Source: Chromatiales bacterium
GTDB lineage: Bacteria; Pseudomonadota; Gammaproteobacteria; Chromatiales; Chromatiaceae
Direction of reading: 5' to 3'
NCBI GenBank assembly: GCA_024762485.1
Contig: JANTHH010000001.1
Coordinates: 1 to 48,966, forward strand
DNA length: 48,966 nt
A model generated the notes under the pieces. That model was not told the DNA's origin. It saw nothing but the letters and a program-made list of their open reading frames with translations, and searched no databases. Both the position numbers and the translations under genes were made by a program. Below, piece by piece: positions 187 to 11,920 of the stretch. Position 1 is the first letter of the stretch. Every line of letters begins with the position of its first letter.

Positions 187-1466
187 CCCGCTCCCACGAC
201 CTGTTCGAAAAAGCCCGGCGCCACATACCCGGCGGCGTGAATTCCCCGGTGCGGGCCTTCAAGGGCGTGGGTGGCGACCCGGTATTCATCGACCACGCCG
301 AGGGGGCCTACCTGTTCGACAGTGATGGCCAGCTGTACATCGACTATGTGGGATCCTGGGGGCCGATGATCCTCGGTCACACCCACCCCGAGGTGATCGC
401 CGCGGTAAAGGCCGCCGCCGACAAGGGCCTGTCCTTCGGCGCCCCCACCGAGGTGGAAATCCGCATGGCCGACCGGGTGTGCGACATCATGCCCGGCATG
501 GACATGGTACGCATGGTCTCATCAGGCACCGAGGCCACCATGAGCGCCATCCGCCTGGCGCGCGGCTATACCGGCCGCGACAAGATCGTCAAGTTCGAGG
601 GCTGCTACCACGGCCACGCCGACTCGCTGCTGGTGAAGGCCGGTTCCGGCATGCTGACCCTCGGCGAGCCGTCCTCGCCCGGCGTGCCCGCGTCGCTGGC
701 CGAGCATACCCTCACCCTGAACTACAATGACGCCGAGCAGGTGAAGGAGACCTTCGCCAGGCTCGGCGAACAGATCGCCTGCATCATCGTCGAGCCGGTG
801 GCCGGCAACATGAACTGCATCCCGCCCGTGCCCGGCTTCCTCGAGACCCTGCGCGCACAGTGCGACGAGCACGGCGCGGTGCTGATCTTCGACGAGGTGA
901 TGACCGGCTTCCGGGTCTCGCTCACCGGCGCCCAGGGCCACTATGGCATCCAGCCGGACCTGACCACCCTGGGCAAGGTCATCGGCGGCGGCATGCCGGT
1001 GGGTGCCTTCGGCGGCAAGGCCGAGATCATGCAGAAGATCGCCCCGCTCGGCCCCGTCTACCAGGCCGGCACCCTGTCCGGCAATCCGGTGGCCATGGCC
1101 GCGGGCCTGAAGACCCTGGAACTGATCTCCGCCCCCGGCTTCTACGCAGACCTGTCCAGCAAGGTCGACAGGCTGGTCGCTGGCGTCATGCAGGCCGCCG
1201 CCGATGCCGGCGTCCCCTTGGCGGAAAACCACGTCGGCGGCATGTTCGGCTTCTTCTTCACCGGGGCTGGACCAGTCACCGACTTCGCCGGTGCCACCGC
1301 CTGCGACCAGGAACAGTTCAGACACTTTTTCCACGGCATGCTGGACCGTGGCGTGTACCTGGCGCCTTCCGCCTTCGAGGCCGGCTTCGTCTCCGCGGCC
1401 CACAGCGGCAAGGACCTCGACGCCACCATCACCGCCGCCAGCGAGGTCTTCGCCGATCTAGGCTGA
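183..1466 (+). CDS. hemL: Glutamate-1-semialdehyde 2,1-aminomutase
   Basis: 427-aa ORF with the typical HemL N-terminus ([25 protein letters not shown]) and class-III aminotransferase body ([28 protein letters not shown]). Confidence 0.97.
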
Positions 1467-3863
1467 TGTCTCCGGCGGCGCATCAAAGGCATACTCCTCC
1501 GCCCCGAGGGGCGGCTGTACGAAATAGCCCTGCACGAGGTCCACGCCACAGCGATACAGCTCGCTCAGGACCTCTGCCGTCTCCACGTAGCCGGCGACGA
1601 CCCGCGGCCCGGCCTTCTGGATGCGCGCCACCACCTCGCCCACATATTCGACCTGTGCCGCATCCTGCGCCAAGGCACGGGTCAGCGCCTGTGGCAGCTT
1701 GACCAGGGCCGGCCGCAGGGTGTGAATGATCTGGCTTCCCCGCTTGCTGGGGATCACGCCCTCCACCATCAACTGACAGCCCAGCGCGGTGAGTGGGCGA
1801 AGGCCTTCGGCCATCGCCTCCAACGGGACATCCTGTCCCGGTCTGTCGAAGGAGAGACCGATCAGGCTGGCCGGCAGGCCGTGCCTGTTCAACGCGGCAA
1901 CGAGCCAATCAGGGAATGCGGGATCCAGCAGACTCTGCTGCGAAATCTTCATGAACAGCTGGCCCTGCCATCCCTTGCCGACATGGGGTGCAGCCCACGC
2001 CAGCACGCCCTCGATGACATGCTGATCGAGGGTCTCGGCCAGGCCGGCGTAGGGCATGAGGCGCATGAAATCCGATGGCGGAGCACCCTCGCCGGGGACA
2101 TCCGCATCGCACAGGCGACTGCGCACTTCGATGCAGTCATTGGCCCCGCTGACCAGATCGACCATGGGCTGCATCAGCAGACGCAGACGCCGCCGCGTCT
2201 CGTCGAGGTCGGCCTTCAGTTGCGCCGCCCGGTTTTTATTCGTGGCCACCCACAGCCTGCGCGCGGCCTCCAGACCCTGGGCCACCACCCGCCCGCCACC
2301 GGCCTTCTGTGCCTTGCGGCAGGCCAGGCCGGCGCGCCGGATCTGTTCCACCACCGAAAGCTGAGGCTCGCACATCACCAGACCACCTGAATTGCCCGGC
2401 CAGTGATGATCTACCTTGCAGATATCCTGTGCCAGCAGGCGTGCCTGCCCGAACCCGAGGTGGCGCATCACCATGGCGACACCGTGGGCAAAGCGCAGCG
2501 GGTGGGCATCCGGATATCGCCTGGCCAGGTTCGACATCAGATGCTCAAGTGCCGATTCCAGGGCACTGAGATCCTCGCTGCTGGCAGGGATATCCGGTTC
2601 CAGGTAGAGCAGTGCGCCACCCTCTTCGGCCGTCGCCACCTCGAGCAGCTTAAGCAGGTTTTCGTTCGCCAGCAGGTCCATGTGATGAAAGACACCCGCA
2701 GCGGCCTCCCGGCGTGCCCGCGCACGCTGCAGGTGCAGACTGACGGCATCCACCAGCAGGGCCGGGGAGATCGGCTTCTGCAGGAAGTCATCGCCCCCGG
2801 ACTTCAATGCCGCAAACTGGCGCGCCGGGCTCTGCTCACGGGAGAGAAAGAGGACGGGGACATCGTCCCAGGCCGGGAACTGCCGGATCAATGCGGTCAG
2901 CTCCTGGCCATCCACCTCCGGCATGTAGAGATCCATGAGGATCAGGTCCGGCCGGTGACGCTGCAGCGACTGTTCGATGGCCTCCGGCTTCAGCAGCCCC
3001 TCGACGTCGAAACCGGCCTGCCTGAGCACCCCCTGCAGATAGGCCGACTGGTCCGCATCATCCTCAACCACCAGGATCCGGGCGCCGCCGGTCACCGGAT
3101 CGAGCAACAGCAGGAGACGCTCCAGCAGCAGGTGCATGTCCACGGGCTTGGTGAGGTAGGCATCACCGCCAGCGCGGATCGCCCGCAGACGACTCTGCAT
3201 GTCCCGCCGGGCGGAGAGGAAGATCACCGGCAAGGGCAGGCGATTGGCCCGGCGCATGGCGGCAATCGCATCGATGCCGCCAAACTCGCCCTCCGGCAGC
3301 ATGACGTCCATGATCACCGCTGCCGGATTCTCTGCCTCCACCGCCGCAGGCAGCAACGCTGCCGAATCCATCACCCGGACCCGGTAACCCGCCAACTTCA
3401 GTTGCGCTGTCAGGTAGTCGGCCATGTCGGCATCGTCATCTACCAGGTACAGCAGATGACCTCTCTGCTCCCCCGGCGCCGCTGGCCGGTTGGTGGCAGC
3501 ACCCACTGTCGTGGAAGGCTCGTGCAGCGGGTGGGTGACCGCGTCCTCCAGGCGGCCGAAGAGGATCCCCAGCCTGCCGACGATCTCCGGGTCGATCCCG
3601 CCGGACACCGGCATGAGCTCTGCCAGCGCCTGTTGCAATTGATCGGCAGCCGCACTGATCTCCAGGAAGCGGAAGCTGCCGCTGGCACCCACCAGACTGT
3701 GCAGGTGCCGCATCAATGCATCGAGGTCCCCGCTCTCGGCAACGCCTTCCGCCACCTGCCGCCAGCAACGGCGGATCTCATCGAGCCGTTGCGGCAGCCC
3801 GTCGATGAATCGCTGACGTACCGCCGCCAGCTTGCCGTTCCCGGGAATTCCCTGTTCCTGCAT
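1458..3863 (-). CDS. Multidomain signalling protein: Hpt - REC - REC - degenerate GGDEF-like - degenerate EAL-like
   Basis: 801 aa. The N-terminal Hpt has [10 protein letters not shown]. Two receivers carry intact Asp/Lys pockets (VIMDVMLP...YLTKP and LILMDLYMP...FLQKP). The GGDEF-shaped region has RFAHGVAMV where RxGGDEF is expected. The EAL-shaped C-terminus (QPMV..IEVRSRL...VAGYVET...QGYF) has the DDFGTG position reading VEGVIP. An RBS (GGAAGGA) lies 6 nt upstream of the ATG at 3863. Confidence 0.85.
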
Positions 3864-3878
3864 CTCGTCCTTCCTGTC

Positions 3879-5408
3879 CTAGCCCAGTTCACTCAGGGTC
3901 TTGAGCAACACAGCGGGATCGATGGGCTTCGCCAGATAGGCATCGACGCCGACCGCAGCCGCCTGCGCCTGCTCGGCCTGCCCCGCCGCCGCAGACAGTA
4001 TGATCACCGGCCCCTCGTACCCCTCATCTCGGGCCGCCTGCACGACCTGCGGTCCCATCATGTCGGGCAGATGCAGATCCATGAGCAGCAGGTCCGGTTT
4101 CGAGGCGGTCAGGGCCGCCAGCGCCATCCCGCCATCCGCTGCAAAGGCGAGGTCGTAACCACTGTCTTCGAGATAAGCCCCGAGCAGTGCCCGGATATCG
4201 GGGTCATCCTCGACGATCAGCAGATGCCGCCTGCCGGTCGTCCGGGCCCGTGTGACCGGTATCCGATGGGACTCGGGGGCATCGATGTCGAAGACGAAGC
4301 GGCTGCCCTTGCCCGGTGTGCTCTCCAGCTGCATCCGCCCCCCCATGCGTTCAACCAGTGCCAGGGTGATGGCGAGACCCAGCCCGGCGCCATGCCTGCG
4401 AATGGCAGGCTGCCCGGCCTGTCTGAAAGGCTCGAAGATACGTCGTTGCTCCGCCACCGGGATCCCGCTGCCGGTATCGCTGACCGCGACGTTGAGCCGG
4501 GCGTCCTGCCAATCGAGTGTCACCCGGATCTCGCCCTGTTGCGTGAACTTGAATGCGTTGCCGGTGAGATTGACCAGGATCTGCCGCAGGCGCATGCCAT
4601 CGAGCAGCAGGCAGGCCGGCAGTCGGGGGCTGACCTCGACGGTGAAGCCGATACCCGATTGCCGGGCAGTCCGCTCGAACATCTGGCGAATGACCCCGGC
4701 GATCTCACGCACGTCGGTCTCTGTGGGATTCAGCTGGAGTTCATCGTTCTCCAGCTTCGCCTGGTCGAGCAGATTATCAACCAGGCTCAGCAGGTGGCGT
4801 GCCGCGCCTTCCATGGCGTCGAGATAGGCCGGCTTCATCTCGCCCTGATGGCGAAGATCGAGATATCCCAGGATGCTGGTGAGCGGCGTGCGGAATTCGT
4901 GGGACATGTTGCCGATGAACAGGCTCTTCAGTTGGCCGGCCTCCTCCAGCCTGCGATGACTCTCCTGCAGACGCACCTGGCTCTGTTCCAGTTCGGCCAG
5001 CAGTTTTTCCCGCTGCCGGTGCAGCAGCGCCAATTCATTGGCCGCCTGTTGCCGCTCCCGCCGCTGGGCCTGTTCATCCGAGGCATCGAGCAGCACGATG
5101 CCGAGTCCTGCAGACAGCGGCACCAGGTGGACATGGGCCGTGTGCGCCACCCCCGGACGGGTCTCCATGCTGAGGAACTCCAGCACCAGCGGCTCGACGA
5201 GTCCTGCAGCCGTGCCACTGAGCCAGGGCAGGACATTGTCGAGCCGTTCCCCCTCCACGAGGTCCGCCAGGCCGTAAAAGTCCAGGTCGCCGGAGGCGCC
5301 GGTGAGCCGCTCTTGCGCATCGGCCACCAGGCACAACGGGTGCACGCGGTGAAACAACTGGCGGTCCAGGTAGTGCTGCAGTTCCTGCGGCAGGCGGTGC
5401 TCTTTCAT
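3879..5408 (-). CDS. Soluble hybrid sensor histidine kinase (unassigned N-terminal domain - coiled coil - HisKA - HATPase_c - REC)
   Basis: I chose the ATG at 5406-5408 (MKEHRL...) rather than the 618-aa ORF-track start, because it overlaps the stop of the upstream GTPase gene as ATGA. H-box SHEFRTPL, N-box NLTGNAFKFT, G1 DTGSGI, G2 GAGLGLAI. The C-terminal receiver has LLLMDLHLP...YLAKP. No hydrophobic TM segment is present. Confidence 0.9.
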   Translation of the reverse strand: MKEHRLPQELQHYLDRQLFHRVHPLCLVADAQERLTGASGDLDFYGLADLVEGERLDNVLPWLSGTAAGLVEPLVLEFLSMETRPGVAHTAHVHLVPLSAGLGIVLLDASDEQAQRRERQQAANELALLHRQREKLLAELEQSQVRLQESHRRLEEAGQLKSLFIGNMSHEFRTPLTSILGYLDLRHQGEMKPAYLDAMEGAARHLLSLVDNLLDQAKLENDELQLNPTETDVREIAGVIRQMFERTARQSGIGFTVEVSPRLPACLLLDGMRLRQILVNLTGNAFKFTQQGEIRVTLDWQDARLNVAVSDTGSGIPVAEQRRIFEPFRQAGQPAIRRHGAGLGLAITLALVERMGGRMQLESTPGKGSRFVFDIDAPESHRIPVTRARTTGRRHLLIVEDDPDIRALLGAYLEDSGYDLAFAADGGMALAALTASKPDLLLMDLHLPDMMGPQVVQAARDEGYEGPVIILSAAAGQAEQAQAAAVGVDAYLAKPIDPAVLLKTLSELG

Positions 5409-5905
5409 CGTGCAGCAATCGCGTTCGCCAGCTGCTGAAATACCGCGCCGACGCCCTCGCCTGTCTTGGCGCTGCAACATTCCACGGGCCAGCCCGCAGC
5501 GATCCGTTGCGAGATATCGTCCGGCGTCACCTCCCACGCCGCCTTCAGGTCGGCCTTGTTGACTGCCGCCACAAAGGGGGTGTCGCCGAGCATCCCGCTG
5601 ACCTGTTCCTGCAGCCTGCAGGCGGTCTCCAGGGTGTCCCGACGGGTACCGTCGATGACCAGCAGGTAGCCCGCAGCGCCCCGTAGATAGGCGCTGCCCG
5701 TCGCATTCAGCACATCGGTCCCTGCCAGGTCCCACAACACCAGCTTCATCGCCATGCCCCCCTCCAGTTCCACCTGCCGTGTGTCGATCTTGACGCCGAC
5801 GGTGGTGAGATATCTGTCGGAGAAGGTGCTATGCACGTAACGCGCCACCATGCTGGTCTTGCCCACCGAAAAATCACCGACCATGCAGATCTTCGCCGCC
5901 TGCAT
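5405..5905 (-). CDS. Ras/Rap-like small GTPase (166 aa)
   Basis: Starts at ATG 5903-5905 (MQAAKICMVGDFSVGKT), 1 nt after the stop of the upstream gene. G1 GDFSVGKT, switch-I TTVGV, G3 WDLAGT, G4 NKAD and G5 SAK occur in canonical order and spacing. The longer ORF-track N-terminus overlaps the upstream gene and has a low-complexity R/P/C composition. Confidence 0.85.
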   Translation of the reverse strand: MQAAKICMVGDFSVGKTSMVARYVHSTFSDRYLTTVGVKIDTRQVELEGGMAMKLVLWDLAGTDVLNATGSAYLRGAAGYLLVIDGTRRDTLETACRLQEQVSGMLGDTPFVAAVNKADLKAAWEVTPDDISQRIAAGWPVECCSAKTGEGVGAVFQQLANAIAAR

Positions 5906-5906
5906 G

Positions 5907-7880
5907 TCAGCCCGACCCGCCCTGTGTGTCGCCCTCCGGCGAGAGGAAACGGATATGCACATCCGCCCGCCGGCTGGCCAGTTCGGGCACGCCACGGCCC
6001 CGCTTCGGCACCGCCGTTTCAATGAGGAACAGTGATGCCGGCAGCCCCTCGCCAACCAGCAGGTCAACCAGCCGCCGGGCCCGTGCCGCGGCGAGCTGGC
6101 GGTTGTACTGGGGCGTGCCAACAGCATCGGTACGGCCTGTGACCACCACCTTGAAGGGCCGCTGCAGCCGCTCCGCCAAGTGCTGGATCTCGCGCAGGCT
6201 GTCGGCCAGCGACGACATGCCCGCCAGCTGGCCGGGATCGGGATCAATGCCATTGGGGAAGCCGATACTCACCTTGTCGACCTCGGCCACCAGGGTGTCG
6301 AGCCGGCGGGATTCACGGACCACCAGCGCCTTGTCGTCGAGCCCGGCAAAGCCGGGCAACTGCTCCAGCGGAAGGATCGACAGGCGCTGCTTCCAGTCCA
6401 GCGGGGCGTCACCCTCGAGCATGATCCAGCCATCCTTCACGCGCAGAGTGACCCCTTCCGGAGGATCGATCATGGCCCTCGCCTGCTGCAGCAAATAGCT
6501 GTCGCGGTCGGTCAGCCGACTGTCATCGAAGGCGTTGATGCCGGGGATCGCCGGTGCCAGCAGCCGGGCACGCTCGATCCAGCGGGCATCCGGGACGCCT
6601 TCGGCCAGCAGTACGCCATCCGCGCCCAGTCTCAGATTGACCGTGGGCGGCGGCGCGAGGATACGCTGTGCCCGGCGCAGGGCGAACGGGGGCGAGAGAT
6701 CCTGGTAGGGCCGCCAGTTGAACGTCACCGCATCCGCCGCTAGGCCACTGCCAGCTACCAGCTCGTCGAGCGGTGGCGCGAGGGGGTCCCGCAGGCCCTC
6801 GATATGCAGCCGGCCATCCGTCCGGTCGACACGTGTCACCACCACGCCGGGACGGGACTCGAGCTGTTGCAACAGTGCCGCCTCCCGTCCCCGGCGTTCA
6901 CTGGCGGCACGCTGCTCGTCCCAGGCCTGGTAACCGAACCATGACAGCAGCAGCACGACAAACGCCAGCAGCCACCACAGAAAGGCGCGGCGCGGTCTCT
7001 TGTCCGTCTCACGCTCCTCCGACACCAGGCAGCGGCGCAGCTCCGGCTGCACCGCCAGCAGCGAATCGCTGTCGCCGTCGAAGGCCTTTATCGCAGCAGC
7101 AAATTTCTCGTGCACGTCCTCGAGGATGCCCATCAACCGCTGCCGCAGGTCGGGTGGCGGCATACCTCGGATGACGCAGGCCATCAGGGCGTAGGGTCCG
7201 TGCAACAGCAAGACGGTGTGCTCGCCCACGTCCACCGTATCCAGGGTGCCCTCGCCGCCCGCGACGAAGGCATCCTTGACGAAGTCCTCGATGGCAGTGA
7301 GCATCGCGGAGACCGCGTCCGCGTCCCGGTCCAGGGCCGTGGGGTCGGCCACATGCTGCATCAGCAGACCACTGCCGGGCTGGATCAGGAATACCTGTTC
7401 CACCCGGTAGATGAGGGTGTGGCGCAACACCACGGCAGAGAACGGCACGCCGGCACGCATGGCCTCGATGCGCCAGGCGATGCCTCGGGGTGAAAGGCTG
7501 TGCTCCAGTGCCTTGTTGAGTGCATCGACGATGCCGCGAAGTGATTCGGCGATGGCGCGCCGGATGGCGGGACCCATGACCGGGAACAGGGCATCGGCCA
7601 GGGAATGGGGGTCGGCCTGGACGGAGCGATGCAGACATTCGGCCACTGGCGCCTCGAGGGCGCTGATCAGGGCGTCGCCCTGCCGTAGTTGCAGCTGTAC
7701 CGCATCCGGCAGCACCTGCGATACGTCCTGGGCTCGCAGGGGCAGATCATCGATACGCTGACGCAGCTGCTCGAGGTCCTTCTGCTCGGGCTCGAACAAA
7801 AGGCGCTTCAGGGTATCGAGTGCGTCCGCGTCCGTGGTGGACGGCCGATCATCCCGGGGTTTCGGTCCCTGCTGATTCAC
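5907..7880 (-). CDS. Bitopic membrane protein: cytoplasmic Roadblock/LC7-like region - 1 TM - periplasmic BON-like repeats - OmpA_C-type peptidoglycan-binding domain
   Basis: 657 aa with a GTG start. It has a single hydrophobic helix (AFLWWLLAFVVLLLSWFGYQAW, aa ~299-320). The C-terminus (VVVTGRTDAVGTPQYNRQLAAARARRLVDLLV...RRADVHI) matches the OmpA/MotB peptidoglycan-binding signature (TD..G....N..LS..RA). The cytoplasmic aa ~155-260 has a Roadblock-like pattern (details in the findings). Confidence 0.8.
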   Translation of the reverse strand: MNQQGPKPRDDRPSTTDADALDTLKRLLFEPEQKDLEQLRQRIDDLPLRAQDVSQVLPDAVQLQLRQGDALISALEAPVAECLHRSVQADPHSLADALFPVMGPAIRRAIAESLRGIVDALNKALEHSLSPRGIAWRIEAMRAGVPFSAVVLRHTLIYRVEQVFLIQPGSGLLMQHVADPTALDRDADAVSAMLTAIEDFVKDAFVAGGEGTLDTVDVGEHTVLLLHGPYALMACVIRGMPPPDLRQRLMGILEDVHEKFAAAIKAFDGDSDSLLAVQPELRRCLVSEERETDKRPRRAFLWWLLAFVVLLLSWFGYQAWDEQRAASERRGREAALLQQLESRPGVVVTRVDRTDGRLHIEGLRDPLAPPLDELVAGSGLAADAVTFNWRPYQDLSPPFALRRAQRILAPPPTVNLRLGADGVLLAEGVPDARWIERARLLAPAIPGINAFDDSRLTDRDSYLLQQARAMIDPPEGVTLRVKDGWIMLEGDAPLDWKQRLSILPLEQLPGFAGLDDKALVVRESRRLDTLVAEVDKVSIGFPNGIDPDPGQLAGMSSLADSLREIQHLAERLQRPFKVVVTGRTDAVGTPQYNRQLAAARARRLVDLLVGEGLPASLFLIETAVPKRGRGVPELASRRADVHIRFLSPEGDTQGGSG

Positions 7881-7910: not shown

Positions 7911-8489
7911 TCAGGATTTGTCCATGCCTTCCATGTCGAATGAGCCCTTGAGCCGCAGTGCCACCTCGCCAAGCATGTCGGCAAGACTCTCGCGGCTCAG
8001 TTTGTCGTCATGCAGTTGCTGCGTTTCCTTATCGAGGGAATCGAGCAGTTGCTCGCCCTGCTTGCGCATCGCGGCCTGCAGCACATCGACCTGGTCGTGC
8101 AGTTCCATGCGCAGGTCCGTGAGCTGTTTGCCGGCATCCTTGTGCACCTCGTCAAGGCGTTTCGCCAGTGAATCGTCCGCCTGCTTGAGCACATCCGAGA
8201 GGCTGCCCAGCGCCTGGGCCGCGGCCTTTTTTTCTGTCTCCAGTGCATTGCCGAGCCGTTCGACCTGGGTGTTCAGCAGATCTTCCAGCCGCTTGAAGCG
8301 TGCATCGAGATCATCCTGCAGCTGTACCCTGTCCCGCTCGAGACGCTCCTCCAGCCGCTGGAAGCGACGATCGAAGTCCCGCATCTGTCCACCGAACAGA
8401 ATTTCTCGAATCTGATCAACATTGTCAGACGTCGCTTCGGTGGCTGCCTCTACCCCCGCGACCTTCTTGGATGCCTTGTTGCCTGCCAT
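7911..8489 (-). CDS. Acidic coiled-coil protein, function unknown (first gene of the operon)
   Basis: 192 aa with an ATG preceded by AAGGAG. Long heptad-like E/R/L/Q/D-rich sequence with no TM or signal peptide. It lies 30 nt upstream of the next gene on the same strand. Confidence 0.6.
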   Translation of the reverse strand: MAGNKASKKVAGVEAATEATSDNVDQIREILFGGQMRDFDRRFQRLEERLERDRVQLQDDLDARFKRLEDLLNTQVERLGNALETEKKAAAQALGSLSDVLKQADDSLAKRLDEVHKDAGKQLTDLRMELHDQVDVLQAAMRKQGEQLLDSLDKETQQLHDDKLSRESLADMLGEVALRLKGSFDMEGMDKS

Positions 8490-8671: not shown

Positions 8672-8700
8672 TAAAAAAGACCCCGCCAGATGGCAGGGTC
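8672..8700 (-). terminator. Rho-independent terminator after the lipoprotein gene
   Basis: Minus-strand RNA reads GACCCUGCC-AUCU-GGCGGGGUC: a 9-bp stem including one G.U pair, followed by UUUUUUAU. It lies 32 nt downstream of the stop at 8732. Confidence 0.72.
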
Positions 8701-8731
8701 TCCTATTACGTACCGCAGTGATGTCAGGCGA

Positions 8732-9814
8732 TCAACCCGCCGACATGACACCCAGTTTTTTCAGCGTCTCAAGGGTCAGCTGACCGACAGCCAGCCCGTT
8801 CTTGCGCTGATAGGCCTTGACGGCAGCCATGGTCTGGCGACCAACGATGCCATCGATCGGACCGGGGTCGAAACCGTCATCCTTCAATGCCACCTGTAGT
8901 CGCTTCACCACGTCCTTGGTGGTATTGGTTTCACAGAGGATTGGGCGCCACTCAAGCTCGCCCTCGCTGACCAGCTGGCGTTCCTTAATGGTGCGATACT
9001 CCGCCGGGATATCAAATTGCTGCTCGCTGGCATCCTTGACCATCTTGCGCACCCTGATGGTCTTGTATTCCGCCGGAACCACCTCGGTAGCCGTCTTGGC
9101 AGACTCGACCACCACGCGCTTGCGCACGACCTTGTACTCGGCCGGAATGGCCACCTTGCGGACACCGGCCGGCTTGACCAGTACACGCTTGGCAACGTTC
9201 TTGTACTCGGCCGGGACCTCCACCAGACACATGATCTCGCCGGTGGCATCATCGATTTTCTCGATCGGACCGCGACCCTTCTTCCAGGTGGTATAGGCAT
9301 CGCGCACGAGCACCTTCTCGTACTCGGTCTCATACACCGCGGGCTCCTCGATCAGCTTGCTGGAGGCCTCCTTGACCAGCACGCGCTCTTCCACCCAGTC
9401 GTATTTCGCCGGGATGACCTTGAGCACTTCGGTGGGCTCCTTCACCAGCACCTTCTCTTCTACCCATTCATAGACGGCGGGCACCGTCTGGATACGCTTG
9501 CCGGCCTCCTTCACCAGGACGGTTTTCTCGATATCCTTATATTGTGCAGGCGCGAATACCCGGGCATAACACTCGCCGGGCTGTGCCTTCGGCGGCAACA
9601 GGTTGTTCCCCGCATCACCCTCACCCGCAGACTGTGCATCACGGGTGGACATCTCACCCCTGAGGCCTTGCAGCGATTGCTTCAGACTTGCGTTCTCCCG
9701 CTCCGTTTCCTTCAAGCGCATTTCCAGATCATCACGTGACTGCATACCGCTACAGCCCGACAGACCAATGATCGCGGCGCTCGCCAACAATCCAAATACT
9801 ATTCTTTTGTTCAT
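8732..9814 (-). CDS. Lipoprotein with eight 23-aa tandem repeats and a C-terminal PG_binding_1-type peptidoglycan-binding domain
   Basis: Starts at ATG 9812-9814 (MNKRIVFGLLASAAIIGLSGC) with lipobox LSGC and a GGAGAG RBS. The repeats follow [VI]PA.Y..V...VLVK.A. The C-terminus (VVKRLQVALKDDGFDPGPIDGIVGRQTMAAVKAYQRKNGL) is a typical PG_binding_1 motif. Confidence 0.85.
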   Translation of the reverse strand: MNKRIVFGLLASAAIIGLSGCSGMQSRDDLEMRLKETERENASLKQSLQGLRGEMSTRDAQSAGEGDAGNNLLPPKAQPGECYARVFAPAQYKDIEKTVLVKEAGKRIQTVPAVYEWVEEKVLVKEPTEVLKVIPAKYDWVEERVLVKEASSKLIEEPAVYETEYEKVLVRDAYTTWKKGRGPIEKIDDATGEIMCLVEVPAEYKNVAKRVLVKPAGVRKVAIPAEYKVVRKRVVVESAKTATEVVPAEYKTIRVRKMVKDASEQQFDIPAEYRTIKERQLVSEGELEWRPILCETNTTKDVVKRLQVALKDDGFDPGPIDGIVGRQTMAAVKAYQRKNGLAVGQLTLETLKKLGVMSAG

Positions 9815-10033
9815 CGGATCCTCTCCAAATTTTATGAACGTCTTTCCGAACCCGTAACTCAGCCACCCTGTCTGCTCAGCCCGACAGCCCCTGCTCGAAT
9901 CACCCTCGCCATCTGTCACGACCAATCAATCAGACGCTTGGTATTTCACTTTGTTTTCAACAACTAAGCGCATTACCCGGAACATCTGACCGACGACTGA
10001 CCGCACCTGAAAACCGTGAGTCGACCAACTATC

Positions 10034-10199: not shown

Positions 10200-10526
10200 T
10201 CAGGTGGGGGAGCCGGTGTCCTCGGGAGGGATGATCTCTATCGATGCGAGATGTTGATCGAGCCGCTGCAGCTGTTGATCGATCACCGCATCGTCCGACG
10301 CCTGCGCGGCCTGCTCCAGGGCAAGACCGATGGCTGACAGGTGATCAAAACCATAGCTGCCCGCGACACCCTTGAGGTTGTGAGCCAGCTGCCACAGGCG
10401 TCGATGGTCCCGGGCCTTCGCGGCAGCACGAATCACGTCGAGTTCCCGGCGGCGGTTCTCAAGGAAGGCCGGCACCAAGTCAGCGATGCCGGCCGCGATC
10501 CTTATCCGGTGAGGCTGCCCGCTCAC
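10200..10526 (-). CDS. Stand-alone histidine phosphotransfer (Hpt) protein
   Basis: 108 aa with the Hpt signature AHNLKGVAGSYGF. Its GTG start overlaps the stop of the upstream activator gene (GTGA). Confidence 0.8.
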   Translation of the reverse strand: MSGQPHRIRIAAGIADLVPAFLENRRRELDVIRAAAKARDHRRLWQLAHNLKGVAGSYGFDHLSAIGLALEQAAQASDDAVIDQQLQRLDQHLASIEIIPPEDTGSPT

Positions 10527-11893
10527 TGGCCGGCCGACTCGGCCTCGGCCCGGAAGCTCGCCGCATCCAGACCATGGCGCCCCAGCAGCTTGTAGAATTC
10601 GGTGCGATTACGCCCGGCCATGCGCGCGGCAGTACTGACATTGCCATTGGTGGTGCGCAACAGACCGACCAGGTAGCGGTGTTCGAAGGCATGCTTCGCC
10701 TCGTCGAGCGACTGCACCTCACCCACCTGGTCCGCCAGGGCCTCGACGACCAGCTGGTCGGGGATCACCTCGGAGGTGCTCAGCACCACGCAGCGTTCAA
10801 CCAGGTTGCGCAGCTGCCGCACGTTGCCCGGCAGGGCGGCCTGCAGCAGGTACTCCTGCCCCTTGGGGGAGAAGCGCCGTCGCGCCGAGGGCTTTGTCCC
10901 CGCCAGGGACGCGAGGAAATGCTCGATCAGCAAGGGGATGTCTTCCCGGCGATCACGCAGCGGGGGTATCAGCAGCGGCACCACGTTCAGCCGGTAGTAC
11001 AGGTCTTCGCGGAATTCATGGCTGCACACCATGGACAACAGGTCATGGTGGGTGGCGGAGATGATCCGCACATCGACAGGCACCGCCTTCAGCGCACCCA
11101 CCGGGCGCACCTGGAAATCCTGCAGCACCCTCAGCAGCTTGGCCTGCAGGTTGGCGGGCATGTCGCCGATCTCATCCAGGAACAGGGTGCCCTTGTCCGC
11201 CGCCTGAAACAGGCCGACATGGCGGCTGTTTGCGCCAGTGAACGCACCCTTCTCATGGCCGAACAACTCGGACTCAAGCAGGTGTTCCGGCATGGCACTG
11301 CAGTTGATGCTGACAAAAGGTCCCTGGCGACGCGGGCTGGCCCTGTGGATCGCCTTGGCCAGCTCCTCCTTGCCGGTACCGGTCTCTCCGCTCAGCAGCA
11401 GCGTGGTATCGCCCATCGCCACCAGACGGGCCCGCTCCACCAGCTCCACCATGGCCGCGGAGCGGTAGACCAGCCCCTCACCGAAGGCCTGGACGGCCGC
11501 ACCCTGCTTGCCTCCGGCACGCTGCAGTGCGCGCTCCACCGCAGCGACCAGGTCCGGCTCCCGAATGGGCTTGGTGATGAAATCCGATACCCCCAGGTGT
11601 GCCGCCTGGATGGCATCACGCACCTCTGCCTGGCCGCTGATCAGGATCACCGGCAACACCGCATCCAGCTGGTGGATGGCCGACAACAGGCGCATGCCAT
11701 CGAGTTCTTCCATCATCAGGTCGCTGACCACCAGATCCGGGCGGCGCCGCTCCATCACCGCCAGTGCCTGACGCCCGCCAGCAGCGGCCGTCACCTGCAT
11801 GCCGGCGAGTTGCAGCCAGCGTTGCGTCAGCGCCAGATGATCGGGGTCATCGTCGACGACAAGGATGTGGGCGCCTTTGGCATGGTCGGACAT
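10523..11893 (-). CDS. Sigma-54-dependent response regulator (REC - AAA+ - Fis-type HTH), NtrC/LuxO class
   Basis: Receiver ILVVDDDPD...VVSDLMM...ITKP. Walker A GETGTGKE, GAFTGA loop, Walker B LFLDEIGDM. The C-terminal HTH is NVSTAARMAGRNRTEFYKLL. I preferred the ATG at 11893 (AGGAAA RBS) over the TTG at 11917. Confidence 0.93.
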   Translation of the reverse strand: MSDHAKGAHILVVDDDPDHLALTQRWLQLAGMQVTAAAGGRQALAVMERRRPDLVVSDLMMEELDGMRLLSAIHQLDAVLPVILISGQAEVRDAIQAAHLGVSDFITKPIREPDLVAAVERALQRAGGKQGAAVQAFGEGLVYRSAAMVELVERARLVAMGDTTLLLSGETGTGKEELAKAIHRASPRRQGPFVSINCSAMPEHLLESELFGHEKGAFTGANSRHVGLFQAADKGTLFLDEIGDMPANLQAKLLRVLQDFQVRPVGALKAVPVDVRIISATHHDLLSMVCSHEFREDLYYRLNVVPLLIPPLRDRREDIPLLIEHFLASLAGTKPSARRRFSPKGQEYLLQAALPGNVRQLRNLVERCVVLSTSEVIPDQLVVEALADQVGEVQSLDEAKHAFEHRYLVGLLRTTNGNVSTAARMAGRNRTEFYKLLGRHGLDAASFRAEAESAGQ

Positions 11894-11920
11894 CGTGGGG
11901 TTTCCTGGCCTGTTCAAGGA

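What the first reader, a model, noticed from the sequence alone, without database searches (positions are those of the whole stretch)
5405..5905. Small GTPase has all five G motifs but a Rap-like Thr at the catalytic Gln position, and is translationally coupled on both sides
The motifs read directly from the translation are G1 GDFSVGKT (aa 10-17), switch-I TTVGV (aa 34-38), G3 WDLAGT (aa 58-63), G4 NKAD (aa 116-119) and G5 SAK (aa 145-147). The size and spacing are Ras/Rab-like, not Era/Der/Obg-like. The residue equivalent to Ras Gln61 is Thr (DLAG-T). Eukaryotic Rap has the same substitution and relies on a GAP that supplies the catalytic residue in trans. This predicts slow intrinsic hydrolysis and a dedicated GAP, for which the neighbouring Roadblock-like domain is the obvious candidate. 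The gene starts 1 nt after the upstream stop, and its TGA overlaps the kinase ATG (ATGA at 5405-5408). This suggests co-translation and probably matched (stoichiometric) expression of the three proteins.
Basis: partly seen in the sequence, partly recalled or inferred. Interest (0 to 1): 0.72.

Follow-up and report, generated by a model that had tools for sequence, protein, structure and literature searches.

The report
Bacterial Rup1 Ras-like GTPase signalling operon
This is a real small Ras-like GTPase that lacks the usual catalytic glutamine, but it belongs to an already described, still untested bacterial family (Group 1 Rup), whose conserved neighbours are a membrane protein with a predicted Roadblock-like domain and a histidine kinase with a PAS-like domain carrying a near-invariant glutamine.

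Summary
A 166-aa GTPase lies on the minus strand at 5905..5405, with all five G motifs at the stated residues. Thr63 aligns with Ras Gln61 and Rap Thr61. The upstream stop is 1 nt from the start, and the stop overlaps the kinase start (ATGA).

The Thr is not a Rap-like signature. In 204 homologues this position reads E, N, T, S, K, A or D, and Gln in only two. The Ras Gly12 position is a near-invariant Phe.

The gene and its operon match the Group 1 Rup system of Wuichet and Søgaard-Andersen (PMC4316618): coiled-coil protein, TM/OmpA protein, GTPase, then a signalling protein with an N-terminal domain. That paper had already noted the missing Gln and proposed a trans-acting Gln from that N-terminal domain. 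I confirmed this Gln here (Q121) and in 67 to 70 of 71 partner proteins.

Two points go beyond that paper. AlphaFold and Foldseek predict a Roadblock/LC7-like fold in the upstream membrane protein (aa 147-265), which sequence profiles miss. They also predict a PAS-like fold for the kinase N-terminal domain. The last gene of the operon carries an EAL domain closest to that of FimX.

Verdict: new member of a known but uncharacterised kind. The mechanism is inferred, not shown.

The parts
5405..5905 (-). Rup1-type small Ras-like GTPase, 166 aa. G1 is GDFSVGKT with Phe12 (codon 5872-5870). The switch-I Thr is T35. G3 is WDLAGT with Thr63 at the Ras Gln61 position (codon 5719-5717). G4 is NKAD and G5 is SAK.
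5907..7880 (-). Inner-membrane partner protein, 657 aa. It has a cytoplasmic helical region (aa 17-143) followed by a predicted Roadblock/LC7-like domain (aa 147-265). One TM helix follows at about aa 299-321, preceded by KRPRR. The periplasmic region ends in an OmpA-like peptidoglycan-binding domain (Pfam aa 562-618).
   Evidence: OmpA; hydropathy; homologues; invariant W136 and R137; fold.
7086..7442 (-). Predicted Roadblock/LC7-like (longin/Roadblock superfamily) domain of the membrane protein, aa 147-265, with alpha-beta-beta-alpha-beta-beta-beta-alpha topology.
   Evidence: The AlphaFold2 model has mean pLDDT 79, above 90 in most of this segment. Foldseek against the PDB gives 16 hits at E <= 1e-3, all longin or Roadblock domains. 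LAMTOR2 and MP1-p14 match at rmsd about 3 A with TM 0.62-0.67, and MglB at E 2.8e-3.
3879..5408 (-). Hybrid histidine kinase, 509 aa: Rup-associated PAS-like N-terminal domain (aa 1-110), a long helix, HisKA (161-221), HATPase_c (270-377) and a receiver domain (397-505).
5046..5051 (-). Codons of Q120 and Q121 of the kinase. This is the near-invariant Gln pair on the helix that leaves the PAS-like core, and the published candidate for a Gln supplied in trans.
   Evidence: Q121 is invariant in alignment A3. It is present in 67 of 71 downstream partners, or 70 if three one-column alignment offsets are counted. See also PMC4316618.
7911..8489 (-). Conserved 192-aa coiled-coil protein, the first gene of the operon.
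   Evidence: Only sub-threshold coiled-coil-type Pfam matches. Homologues lie directly upstream of the membrane-protein gene in most related loci. It has a Shine-Dalgarno sequence, AAGGAG.
1458..3863 (-). Last gene of the operon, 801 aa: Hpt, two receiver domains, an unassigned 170-aa segment, and an EAL domain closest to that of the c-di-GMP receptor FimX. It is the probable endpoint of the phosphorelay.
   Evidence: Pfam. The best PDB matches are FimX EAL domains at E 8e-24. It has its own Shine-Dalgarno sequence.
8675..8704 (-). Intrinsic-terminator-like hairpin (13 bp stem followed by a T run) that closes the preceding gene and marks the upstream boundary of the five-gene operon.

Best explanation
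The gene encodes a Group 1 Rup (Rup1) small Ras-like GTPase. It sits in that family's conserved module, here a five-gene minus-strand operon: coiled-coil protein, TM protein with a cytoplasmic Roadblock-like domain and a periplasmic OmpA-like domain, GTPase, hybrid histidine kinase, and an Hpt-REC-REC-EAL protein.

Shown:
- The protein is an intact GTP-binding domain (G1 to G5).
- Like almost all of its family, it lacks the cis catalytic Gln. It also carries Phe at the Gly12 position.
- It is tightly, probably translationally, coupled to both neighbours.
- Both neighbours carry conserved domains that are specific to the neighbourhood of this GTPase.

Inferred mechanism:
- The GTPase is a nucleotide-dependent switch between the membrane protein and the kinase.
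- The membrane protein reads the envelope or peptidoglycan through its periplasmic part. It acts on the GTPase through its cytoplasmic Roadblock-like platform, as GEF, GAP or anchor.
- The GTP-bound GTPase binds the PAS-like N-terminal domain of the kinase and changes kinase output. That output is relayed through REC and Hpt domains to a FimX-like EAL protein.
- Intrinsic GTP hydrolysis is expected to be slow, so switch-off needs a partner. The best candidate is the near-invariant Gln (Q121) on the helix leaving the PAS-like domain, acting in trans.
- Thr63 itself has no special role.
For: - Family assignment: Ras Pfam and PDB matches. At least 594 species-level genomes and 4599 database proteins encode relatives.
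- The Gln61 position is variable and reads Gln in only 2 of 204 sequences. Phe occupies position 12 in 78 of 84 loci and 111 of 120 proteins.
- The gene order coiled-coil, OmpA-like, GTPase, output gene recurs across Gammaproteobacteria, Betaproteobacteria, Acidobacteriota, Cyanobacteria, Verrucomicrobiota and Deinococcota, with short or overlapping junctions.
- This is the neighbourhood, the missing Gln and the trans-Gln proposal published for Group 1 Rup (PMC4316618).
- The kinase N-terminal domain is found in 223 representative proteins. It is fused to kinases or cyclases, or stands alone.
- Its model has pLDDT 96.5 and is PAS-like, with a long exit helix.
- Q121 is conserved in 67 to 70 of 71 partners, including a divergent second subtype.
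- A Roadblock-like fold is predicted in the membrane protein.
- Operon limits come from a terminator and from the pattern of Shine-Dalgarno sequences.
Against: - No biochemical or genetic data exist for any Rup1 system. None were found, and the 2014 paper says none had been characterised.
- No complex could be modelled, so no contact between the GTPase and either neighbour is shown.
- Q121 lies on a long helix that probably forms the dimeric linker to the DHp domain. Its conservation could be structural rather than catalytic.
- The two family members that do have a cis Gln still have the partner Gln (n = 2, uninformative).
- The Roadblock and PAS assignments rest on predicted structures, with Foldseek E-values of only 1e-3 to 1e-4 and TM-scores of 0.45 to 0.67.
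- In several Thiotrichaceae loci the membrane-protein gene is not adjacent.
Confidence: 0.6

Rival explanations
1. One reading: a Rap-like GTPase whose Thr61-type active site is completed by a GAP residue supplied in trans from the upstream Roadblock-like domain.
For: Thr occupies the Gln61 position. A Roadblock/longin-like fold is predicted in the upstream protein. That protein has an invariant Trp-Arg pair (W136, R137) just before the domain. From established knowledge, longin and Roadblock proteins include GAPs: MglB, and the FLCN and Nprl2 arginine-finger GAPs.
Against: Thr is not conserved in the family. The Gly12 position is Phe, unlike Rap. No RapGAP domain or Asn-thumb candidate was identified. 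MglB supplies no catalytic residue. The only residue conserved family-wide that could replace the missing Gln lies in the downstream protein, not the upstream one.
Confidence: 0.15
2. A hydrolysis-deficient, constitutively GTP-bound adaptor, comparable to the eukaryotic Rnd and RhoH proteins. These also carry substitutions at both the Gly12 and Gln61 positions. Regulation would come from expression level or partner binding rather than from a GTPase cycle.
For: Both hot-spot positions are substituted (F12, T63), and position 63 evolves freely, as expected if it has no catalytic role. Tight co-translation with partners would suit a stoichiometric complex subunit.
Against: The switch-I Thr, DxxG and all nucleotide-binding motifs are strictly conserved. 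A near-invariant Gln in the partner and a Roadblock-like domain are what one expects of a regulated cycle. Nothing direct argues either way.
Confidence: 0.2
3. The conserved Gln pair in the kinase is only a structural feature of the PAS-to-DHp signalling helix. On this view the kinase domain is purely an effector, and GTP hydrolysis is intrinsic and slow (a timer) or is promoted allosterically by the Roadblock-like domain, as MglB does.
For: Q120 and Q121 lie three turns into a 50-residue helix that continues to the HisKA domain. The closest folds are PAS-kinase linkers such as YF1 and FlrB.
Against: The Gln is kept in stand-alone versions of the domain of about 120-145 aa that have no kinase, some ending a few residues after it. 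It is also kept in cyclase fusions.
Confidence: 0.25

Closest known systems
Group 1 Rup (Rup1) GTPases and their four-gene neighbourhood (Wuichet and Søgaard-Andersen, Genome Biol Evol 2014/2015, PMC4316618)
   Same: A small Ras/Rab-like GTPase with eukaryote-like G1 to G5 motifs but no G3 Gln. It is flanked by a coiled-coil protein and by a protein with an unknown domain, a TM helix and an OmpA domain. It is followed by a signalling protein (a histidine kinase here) whose N-terminal region carries a near-invariant Gln. No Pfam Roadblock/MglB gene is adjacent.
   Different: Nothing essential differs. This copy is at most 72% identical to any database protein and at most 56% identical to any representative genome. 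Beyond the paper, the 'unknown' domain of the membrane protein is predicted to be Roadblock/LC7-like and the kinase N-terminal domain PAS-like. Phe at the Gly12 position is family-wide.
Eukaryotic Rap1 and RapGAP
   Same: Thr at the Gln61 position, and the idea that a GAP completes the active site in trans (established knowledge).
   Different: Thr is not conserved in this family. The Gly12 position is Phe. Switch I is Rab-like (TTVGV) rather than Rap-like (YDPTIEDSY). There is no RapGAP domain nearby.
MglA/MglB of Myxococcus and Thermus, and the actinobacterial conservon (CvnA-D, Mfp)
   Same: A bacterial small Ras-like GTPase working with a Roadblock-fold protein and, in conservons, a histidine kinase encoded in the same operon (PMC4316618; MglB is among the fold hits).
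   Different: MglA-family proteins lack the G3 Asp, and Group 1 MglA keeps an intrinsic Gln and Arg. This protein has D59 and no Gln. The Roadblock-like domain here is embedded in a TM/OmpA protein and is not detectable by sequence. The kinase is a soluble hybrid kinase with a PAS-like GTPase-associated domain.
Eukaryotic Rab GTPases with TBC GAPs; Rag GTPases with Ragulator (LAMTOR)
   Same: The best sequence matches are Rab14, Rab23 and Rab1. TBC GAPs supply a Gln finger in trans (established knowledge). The best structural matches of the partner domain include the LAMTOR Roadblock proteins, which form a membrane-anchored platform for a GTPase.
   Different: There are no C-terminal prenylation cysteines, no TBC domain, and no cis Gln at all. 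The membrane anchoring is by a bacterial TM/peptidoglycan-binding protein.

Membership tests
Ras superfamily small GTPase | Single G domain of about 160-200 aa with G1 GxxxxGK[ST], a switch-I Thr, G3 DxxG, G4 NKxD and G5 SAK | tested here: met
   All five motifs are present and are invariant in the family alignment. Pfam Ras scores E 3.7e-27 and PDB Rab matches E about 5e-19.
Group 1 Rup (Rup1) | The G3 motif lacks the catalytic Gln | tested here: met
   T63 follows DLAG. Homologues carry E, N, T, S, K, A or D, and Gln in 2 of 204.
Group 1 Rup (Rup1) | Conserved neighbourhood: coiled-coil protein; protein with unknown domain, TM helix and OmpA domain; signalling output protein with an N-terminal region carrying an invariant Gln | tested here: met
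   All three are present in the window and in most of 80 related genomes. The Gln is Q121, conserved in 67 to 70 of 71 partners.
Group 1 Rup (Rup1) | Not coupled to a sequence-detectable MglB/Roadblock (Pfam Robl_LC7) gene | tested here: met
   No Robl_LC7 hit in the operon's five genes or the gene just upstream, nor in 75 homologues of the membrane protein even at E <= 1. A Roadblock-like fold is nevertheless predicted.
Group 1 Rup (Rup1) | Phylogenetic placement inside the published Group 1 Rup clade | not tested
   The reference sequences of the paper's supplementary table were not retrieved. Relatives occur in the same taxa the paper lists: Nostocales, Gammaproteobacteria, myxobacteria.
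Rap subfamily | Conserved Thr61 with Gly12, a Rap effector loop, and a RapGAP (Asn-thumb) partner | tested here: not met
   Thr is not conserved. The Gly12 position is Phe and switch I is TTVGV. No RapGAP domain is present in the operon.
MglA family | G3 lacks the conserved Asp (TxxGQ type), and the gene is coupled to MglB | tested here: not met
   D59 is present and invariant. No MglB gene is detectable by sequence.
Rab family (eukaryotic sense) | C-terminal prenylatable Cys motif and the cis Gln of WDTAGQE | tested here: not met
   The C-terminus is ...ANAIAAR with no Cys, and G3 is WDLAGT. Overall similarity is highest to Rabs, and NCBI names some relatives 'Rab family GTPase'.
Roadblock/LC7 (longin-Roadblock superfamily): the upstream partner domain | Alpha-beta-beta-alpha-beta-beta-beta(-alpha) fold with structural similarity to MglB and LAMTOR | tested here: inconclusive
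   The predicted topology matches, and all 16 Foldseek hits at E <= 1e-3 are longin or Roadblock domains. However, this is a model, TM-scores are 0.45 to 0.67, and there is no sequence-profile support beyond two sub-threshold Fuz_longin_1 hits.

The most novel reading that the evidence does not exclude
The Rup1 module may be a bacterial transmembrane G-protein switch built like eukaryotic Ragulator-Rag or MglB-MglA. A membrane-anchored Roadblock-fold platform, tied to the peptidoglycan, would load or hold a Rab-like GTPase. The active site of that GTPase would be completed only in trans, by a Gln finger on the PAS-like domain of its effector kinase and possibly by the invariant Arg137 of the platform protein. 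Effector binding and switch-off would then be the same event. This would couple envelope state to a phosphorelay ending in a FimX-like c-di-GMP receptor.
Probability: 0.2. Interest if true: 0.7.

Novelty: new member of a known kind. Interest (0 to 1): 0.4.

Why it matters
Rup1 proteins are the bacterial small GTPases closest to eukaryotic Rab, Ras and Rho proteins (PMC4316618; bioRxiv 10.1101/2024.02.28.582541). They are widespread, with relatives in at least 594 species-level genomes. Even so, I found no published experiment on any of them.

The feature flagged in the window, the missing catalytic Gln, was described in 2014 and is not a discovery. This analysis adds predicted folds for the two conserved partners: a Roadblock/LC7-like domain in the TM/OmpA protein and a PAS-like domain carrying the conserved Gln in the kinase. 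This suggests that Rup systems, which were defined by the absence of MglB, may after all pair a GTPase with a Roadblock-fold regulator, as MglA, Rag and Rab systems do. It also gives concrete residues to mutate: F12, T63, Q121 of the kinase and R137 of the membrane protein.

Tried and rejected
- The word-indexed protein search with the kinase N-terminal domain found nothing. The exhaustive representative search then found 223 relatives.
It was replaced by alignment A4, made from the proteins.
- Sequence-profile searches of both partner domains against the PDB gave no meaningful hit. Pfam gave none even at E <= 1. The fold assignments therefore rest on predicted structures only.
- I tested whether GTPases that do have a cis Gln lose the partner Gln. 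Only two such loci exist and both keep it, so the test is uninformative.
- Four literature searches for experimental work on Rup or Rup1 systems found none.
- Readings rejected: a Rap orthologue; an MglA-family member; a eukaryote-type prenylated Rab; the 282-aa extended ORF at 5405..6253 and the 1011-aa plus-strand ORF at 2403..5438, both high-GC artefacts that overlap real genes.
- Residue-level structural superposition of Thr63 on Ras Gln61 was not possible, because Foldseek output gives no residue alignment and both prediction jobs went to the partner domains. The assignment rests on the ungapped DxxG-X sequence alignment.
Full report
**1. The observation**

The finding sits on the minus strand. 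The ORF runs from ATG 5905-5903 to TGA 5407-5405 and encodes 166 aa: MQAAKICMVGDFSVGKTSMV...ANAIAAR.

- G1 GDFSVGKT, aa 10-17
- TTVGV, aa 34-38
- WDLAGT, aa 58-63
- NKAD, aa 116-119
- SAK, aa 145-147

Independent scoring supports a real gene. Pfam Ras (PF00071) scores E 3.7e-27 over aa 5-163, Roc scores 4.4e-23, and TIGR00231 small_GTP scores 6.3e-15. The best solved structures by sequence are Rab14, Rab23, Rab21, Rab1 and Sec4, at E about 5e-19 over the full length.

In those alignments Thr63 lies opposite the Gln of WDTAGQE. The same alignment places Phe12 opposite Ras Gly12.

The upstream ORF ends at TGA 5909-5907, one base before the ATG. The downstream kinase starts at ATG 5408-5406, overlapping the GTPase stop (ATGA). 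No Shine-Dalgarno-like sequence precedes the GTPase or kinase starts. The first and last genes of the operon do have one: AAGGAG and GGAAGGA.

**2. What the family looks like**

The protein search returned 4599 proteins at E <= 1e-5. The closest is 72% identical and most are 50-60% identical.

Among the best 120, the residue after DxxG reads N, E, T, S, K, A, D or G, and never Gln. G1 is GDFSVGKT or a close variant, with Phe at the Gly12 position in 111 of 120.

A scan of one genome per species found at least 594 genomes with a relative. They include Thiomargarita/Beggiatoa, Chromatiales, Variovorax, Limnobacter, Acidobacteriota, Nostocales, Verrucomicrobiota, Deinococcota and a myxobacterium. 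None is more than 56% identical, so the window's own genome is not among the representatives.

In 84 loci (83 related loci plus the window) the Gln61-equivalent reads E 49, T 9, N 9, K 5, S 3, A 3, D 3, Q 2, R 1. The Gly12-equivalent is Phe in 78.

The family trait is therefore 'no Gln, any small or polar residue' together with a bulky aromatic at position 12. Thr63 of this copy is one sample from a freely varying position. It is not a conserved Rap-like signature.

**3. Surroundings**

A 13-bp terminator hairpin on the minus strand at 8704-8675 closes the preceding gene. Five co-directional genes follow:
- A 192-aa coiled-coil protein (8489..7911).
- A 657-aa protein (7880..5907) with one TM helix near aa 299-321 after a KRPRR stretch, and a C-terminal OmpA-like domain.
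- The GTPase.
- A 509-aa hybrid histidine kinase (5408..3879) with HisKA, HATPase_c and REC domains and a 150-aa N-terminus that matches no Pfam family.
- An 801-aa Hpt-REC-REC-EAL protein (3863..1458).

Using the window's proteins as tblastn queries on 83 related loci, the order coiled-coil, OmpA-like, GTPase, output gene recurs across phyla. Junctions are tight. The median gap is 10 nt between the membrane-protein gene and the GTPase (18 of 55 overlap). It is 7 nt between the GTPase and the downstream gene (26 of 77 overlap). Start codons in those loci were assigned heuristically.

**4. It is a described system**

Wuichet and Søgaard-Andersen (PMC4316618) defined the Rup family as Ras-superfamily GTPases of unknown function in prokaryotes that are not coupled to MglB. 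For Group 1 Rup they reported the following:
- Eukaryote-like G motifs, but no G3 Gln.
- An invariant Gln in the N-terminal region of that output protein, which they speculated is supplied in trans by an unknown GAP.

The window matches every tested point. A 2024 preprint still uses Rup1 only as a phylogenetic reference group. Four literature searches found no experimental work on it.

**5. The kinase N-terminal domain and its Gln**

jackhmmer from the window's first 150 residues recovered the same domain in 46 of 78 downstream proteins. In several cyanobacteria it is a stand-alone protein of about 130 aa.

Invariant or nearly invariant positions are G40, D108, Q120 and Q121; H94 is also strongly conserved (91%). 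Most of the remaining downstream proteins carry a divergent version with the same C-terminal motif...LLQxAR.... In a joint alignment of 71 partners the Gln equivalent to Q121 is present in 67. Three more are one-column offsets and one has Arg.

An exhaustive search of 1.84 billion representative proteins found 223 proteins with the domain. It is fused to HisKA/HATPase/REC or to adenylate/guanylate cyclase domains, or stands alone.

AlphaFold2 on a 72-sequence alignment gave a very confident model, with pLDDT 96.5. It has an N-terminal helix, two strands, a short helical excursion, three long strands, and then a helix from residue 110 to at least 159. Foldseek places it with PAS domains of histidine kinases and LOV proteins (FlrB, Rv1364c, YF1, YtvA, BvgS), at E about 1e-3 and TM 0.45-0.6.

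Q120 and Q121 (nt 5051-5046) sit about three turns into the exit helix.

**6. The membrane protein**

The cytoplasmic 310 residues have 523 detectable homologues and no Pfam domain. The AlphaFold2 model has mean pLDDT 79, above 90 over most of aa 160-290. It shows long helices at aa 17-143. An alpha-beta-beta-alpha-beta-beta-beta-alpha unit follows at aa 147-265.

All 16 Foldseek hits at E <= 1e-3 are longin or Roadblock-superfamily domains: AP sigma subunits, TRAPP subunits, Mon1-Ccz1 and LAMTOR. LAMTOR2 and MP1-p14 give the tightest superpositions, at rmsd about 3 A and TM 0.62-0.67. An Asgard Roadblock protein (E 2.0e-3) and MglB (E 2.8e-3) follow.

The helix-first topology is that of Roadblock/LC7. 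The 2014 classification treated this region as unknown and treated Rup as lacking MglB.

Invariant residues include W136 and R137, just before the domain.

**7. Mechanism**

Shown by sequence and comparison:
- An intact nucleotide-binding switch protein.
- No cis Gln, and a blocked Gly12 position.
- Tight coupling to two partners that carry domains dedicated to this GTPase's neighbourhood.

Inferred:
- Intrinsic hydrolysis is slow.
- The Roadblock-like platform of the TM/OmpA protein controls loading, hydrolysis or localisation, in response to something sensed in the periplasm or peptidoglycan.
- The GTP-bound form acts on the PAS-like domain to set kinase output, which is relayed through REC and Hpt domains.
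- The conserved Gln may complete the active site in trans, so that effector engagement also times switch-off.

Precedent from established knowledge cuts both ways. TBC GAPs and RapGAP supply Gln or Asn in trans. MglB supplies nothing and works allosterically. FLCN and Nprl2, which carry longin domains, supply Arg.

None can be excluded without complex models or biochemistry.

**8. Output end**

The EAL domain of the last gene matches FimX EAL domains best (E 8e-24). From established knowledge, FimX is a c-di-GMP receptor with a catalytically inactive EAL domain that controls type IV pilus assembly at the cell pole.

Read against the canonical EAL motifs as I know them, several metal-binding positions are substituted: EVR for EAL, and VEGV for DDFG. 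The pathway therefore probably ends in c-di-GMP sensing rather than hydrolysis. I did not test this beyond the alignment.

**9. Verdict**

- Right: the missing Gln, the probable need for a partner, the coupling, and a Roadblock-like neighbour.
- Wrong: treating the Thr as Rap-like.
- Probably wrong: which neighbour replaces the Gln.

The system is a new, fairly divergent member of a family described in 2014, so the core finding is not novel. What remains interesting is that this widespread family is experimentally untouched, and that both partner domains now have predicted folds with specific residues to test.

Noticed in passing
window 5870-5872 (minus strand; Phe12 of the GTPase): The Ras Gly12 position is Phe, in GDFSVGKT. 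This is near-invariant in the family: 111 of the top 120 proteins and 78 of 84 loci. It is arguably a more distinctive family trait than the Thr. It was not mentioned in the passages of the 2014 Rup paper that I read. A bulky residue here would clash with a RasGAP-type arginine finger.
   Followed up: partly
window 1458-3863 (minus strand): The last gene of the operon encodes Hpt, two REC domains, an unassigned segment of about 170 aa, and an EAL domain. The EAL domain's best PDB matches are FimX EAL domains (E 8e-24), and canonical catalytic motifs appear substituted (EVR for EAL, VEGV for DDFG). The unassigned segment (aa about 385-555) might be a degenerate GGDEF domain, as in FimX. This was not tested.
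   Followed up: partly
window 7086-7442 (minus strand), and homologues P0121-P0240: The 'domain of unknown function' of the Rup1-associated TM/OmpA protein is predicted to have a Roadblock/LC7-like fold that Pfam does not detect. The pair W136 and R137 just upstream of it is invariant in 75 sequences.
   Followed up: yes
L039, L051, L055, L066, L078, L016, L019 (gene directly downstream of the GTPase): In Nostocales and some other genomes the PAS-like, Gln-bearing domain is encoded as a stand-alone protein of about 120-145 aa instead of being fused to a kinase. Some copies end only a few residues after the conserved Gln pair.
   Followed up: partly
L001, L004, L006, L008-L010, L013, L015, L018 (Thiotrichaceae/Beggiatoa-type loci): In these loci only the GTPase and the kinase are adjacent. 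No homologue of the OmpA-like or coiled-coil genes was found within the fetched flanks, so the four-gene module is split or reduced in this lineage.
   Followed up: no
window 8732-9925 (minus strand): The gene just upstream of the operon encodes a 397-aa protein with a C-terminal PG_binding_1 domain (E 1.7e-12). It also has an internal run of similar segments (VLVKE.../PAxYxxV... motifs). It is closed by the strong terminator at 8704-8675. This makes a second peptidoglycan-binding protein next to the operon.
   Followed up: no
window 10200-11917 (minus strand): A 464-aa ORF has an N-terminal receiver-like region and a GAFTGA motif, typical of a sigma-54-dependent activator. It overlaps by 4 nt a 108-aa ORF with an Hpt-like H..KG motif. 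This is read from the translations only and was not scanned against Pfam.
   Followed up: no
window 2403-5438 (plus strand) and 5405-6253 (minus strand): Long ORFs of 1011 aa and 282 aa overlap the real genes, one on the opposite strand and one in another frame. They are typical open frames of GC-rich DNA, not genes.
   Followed up: yes
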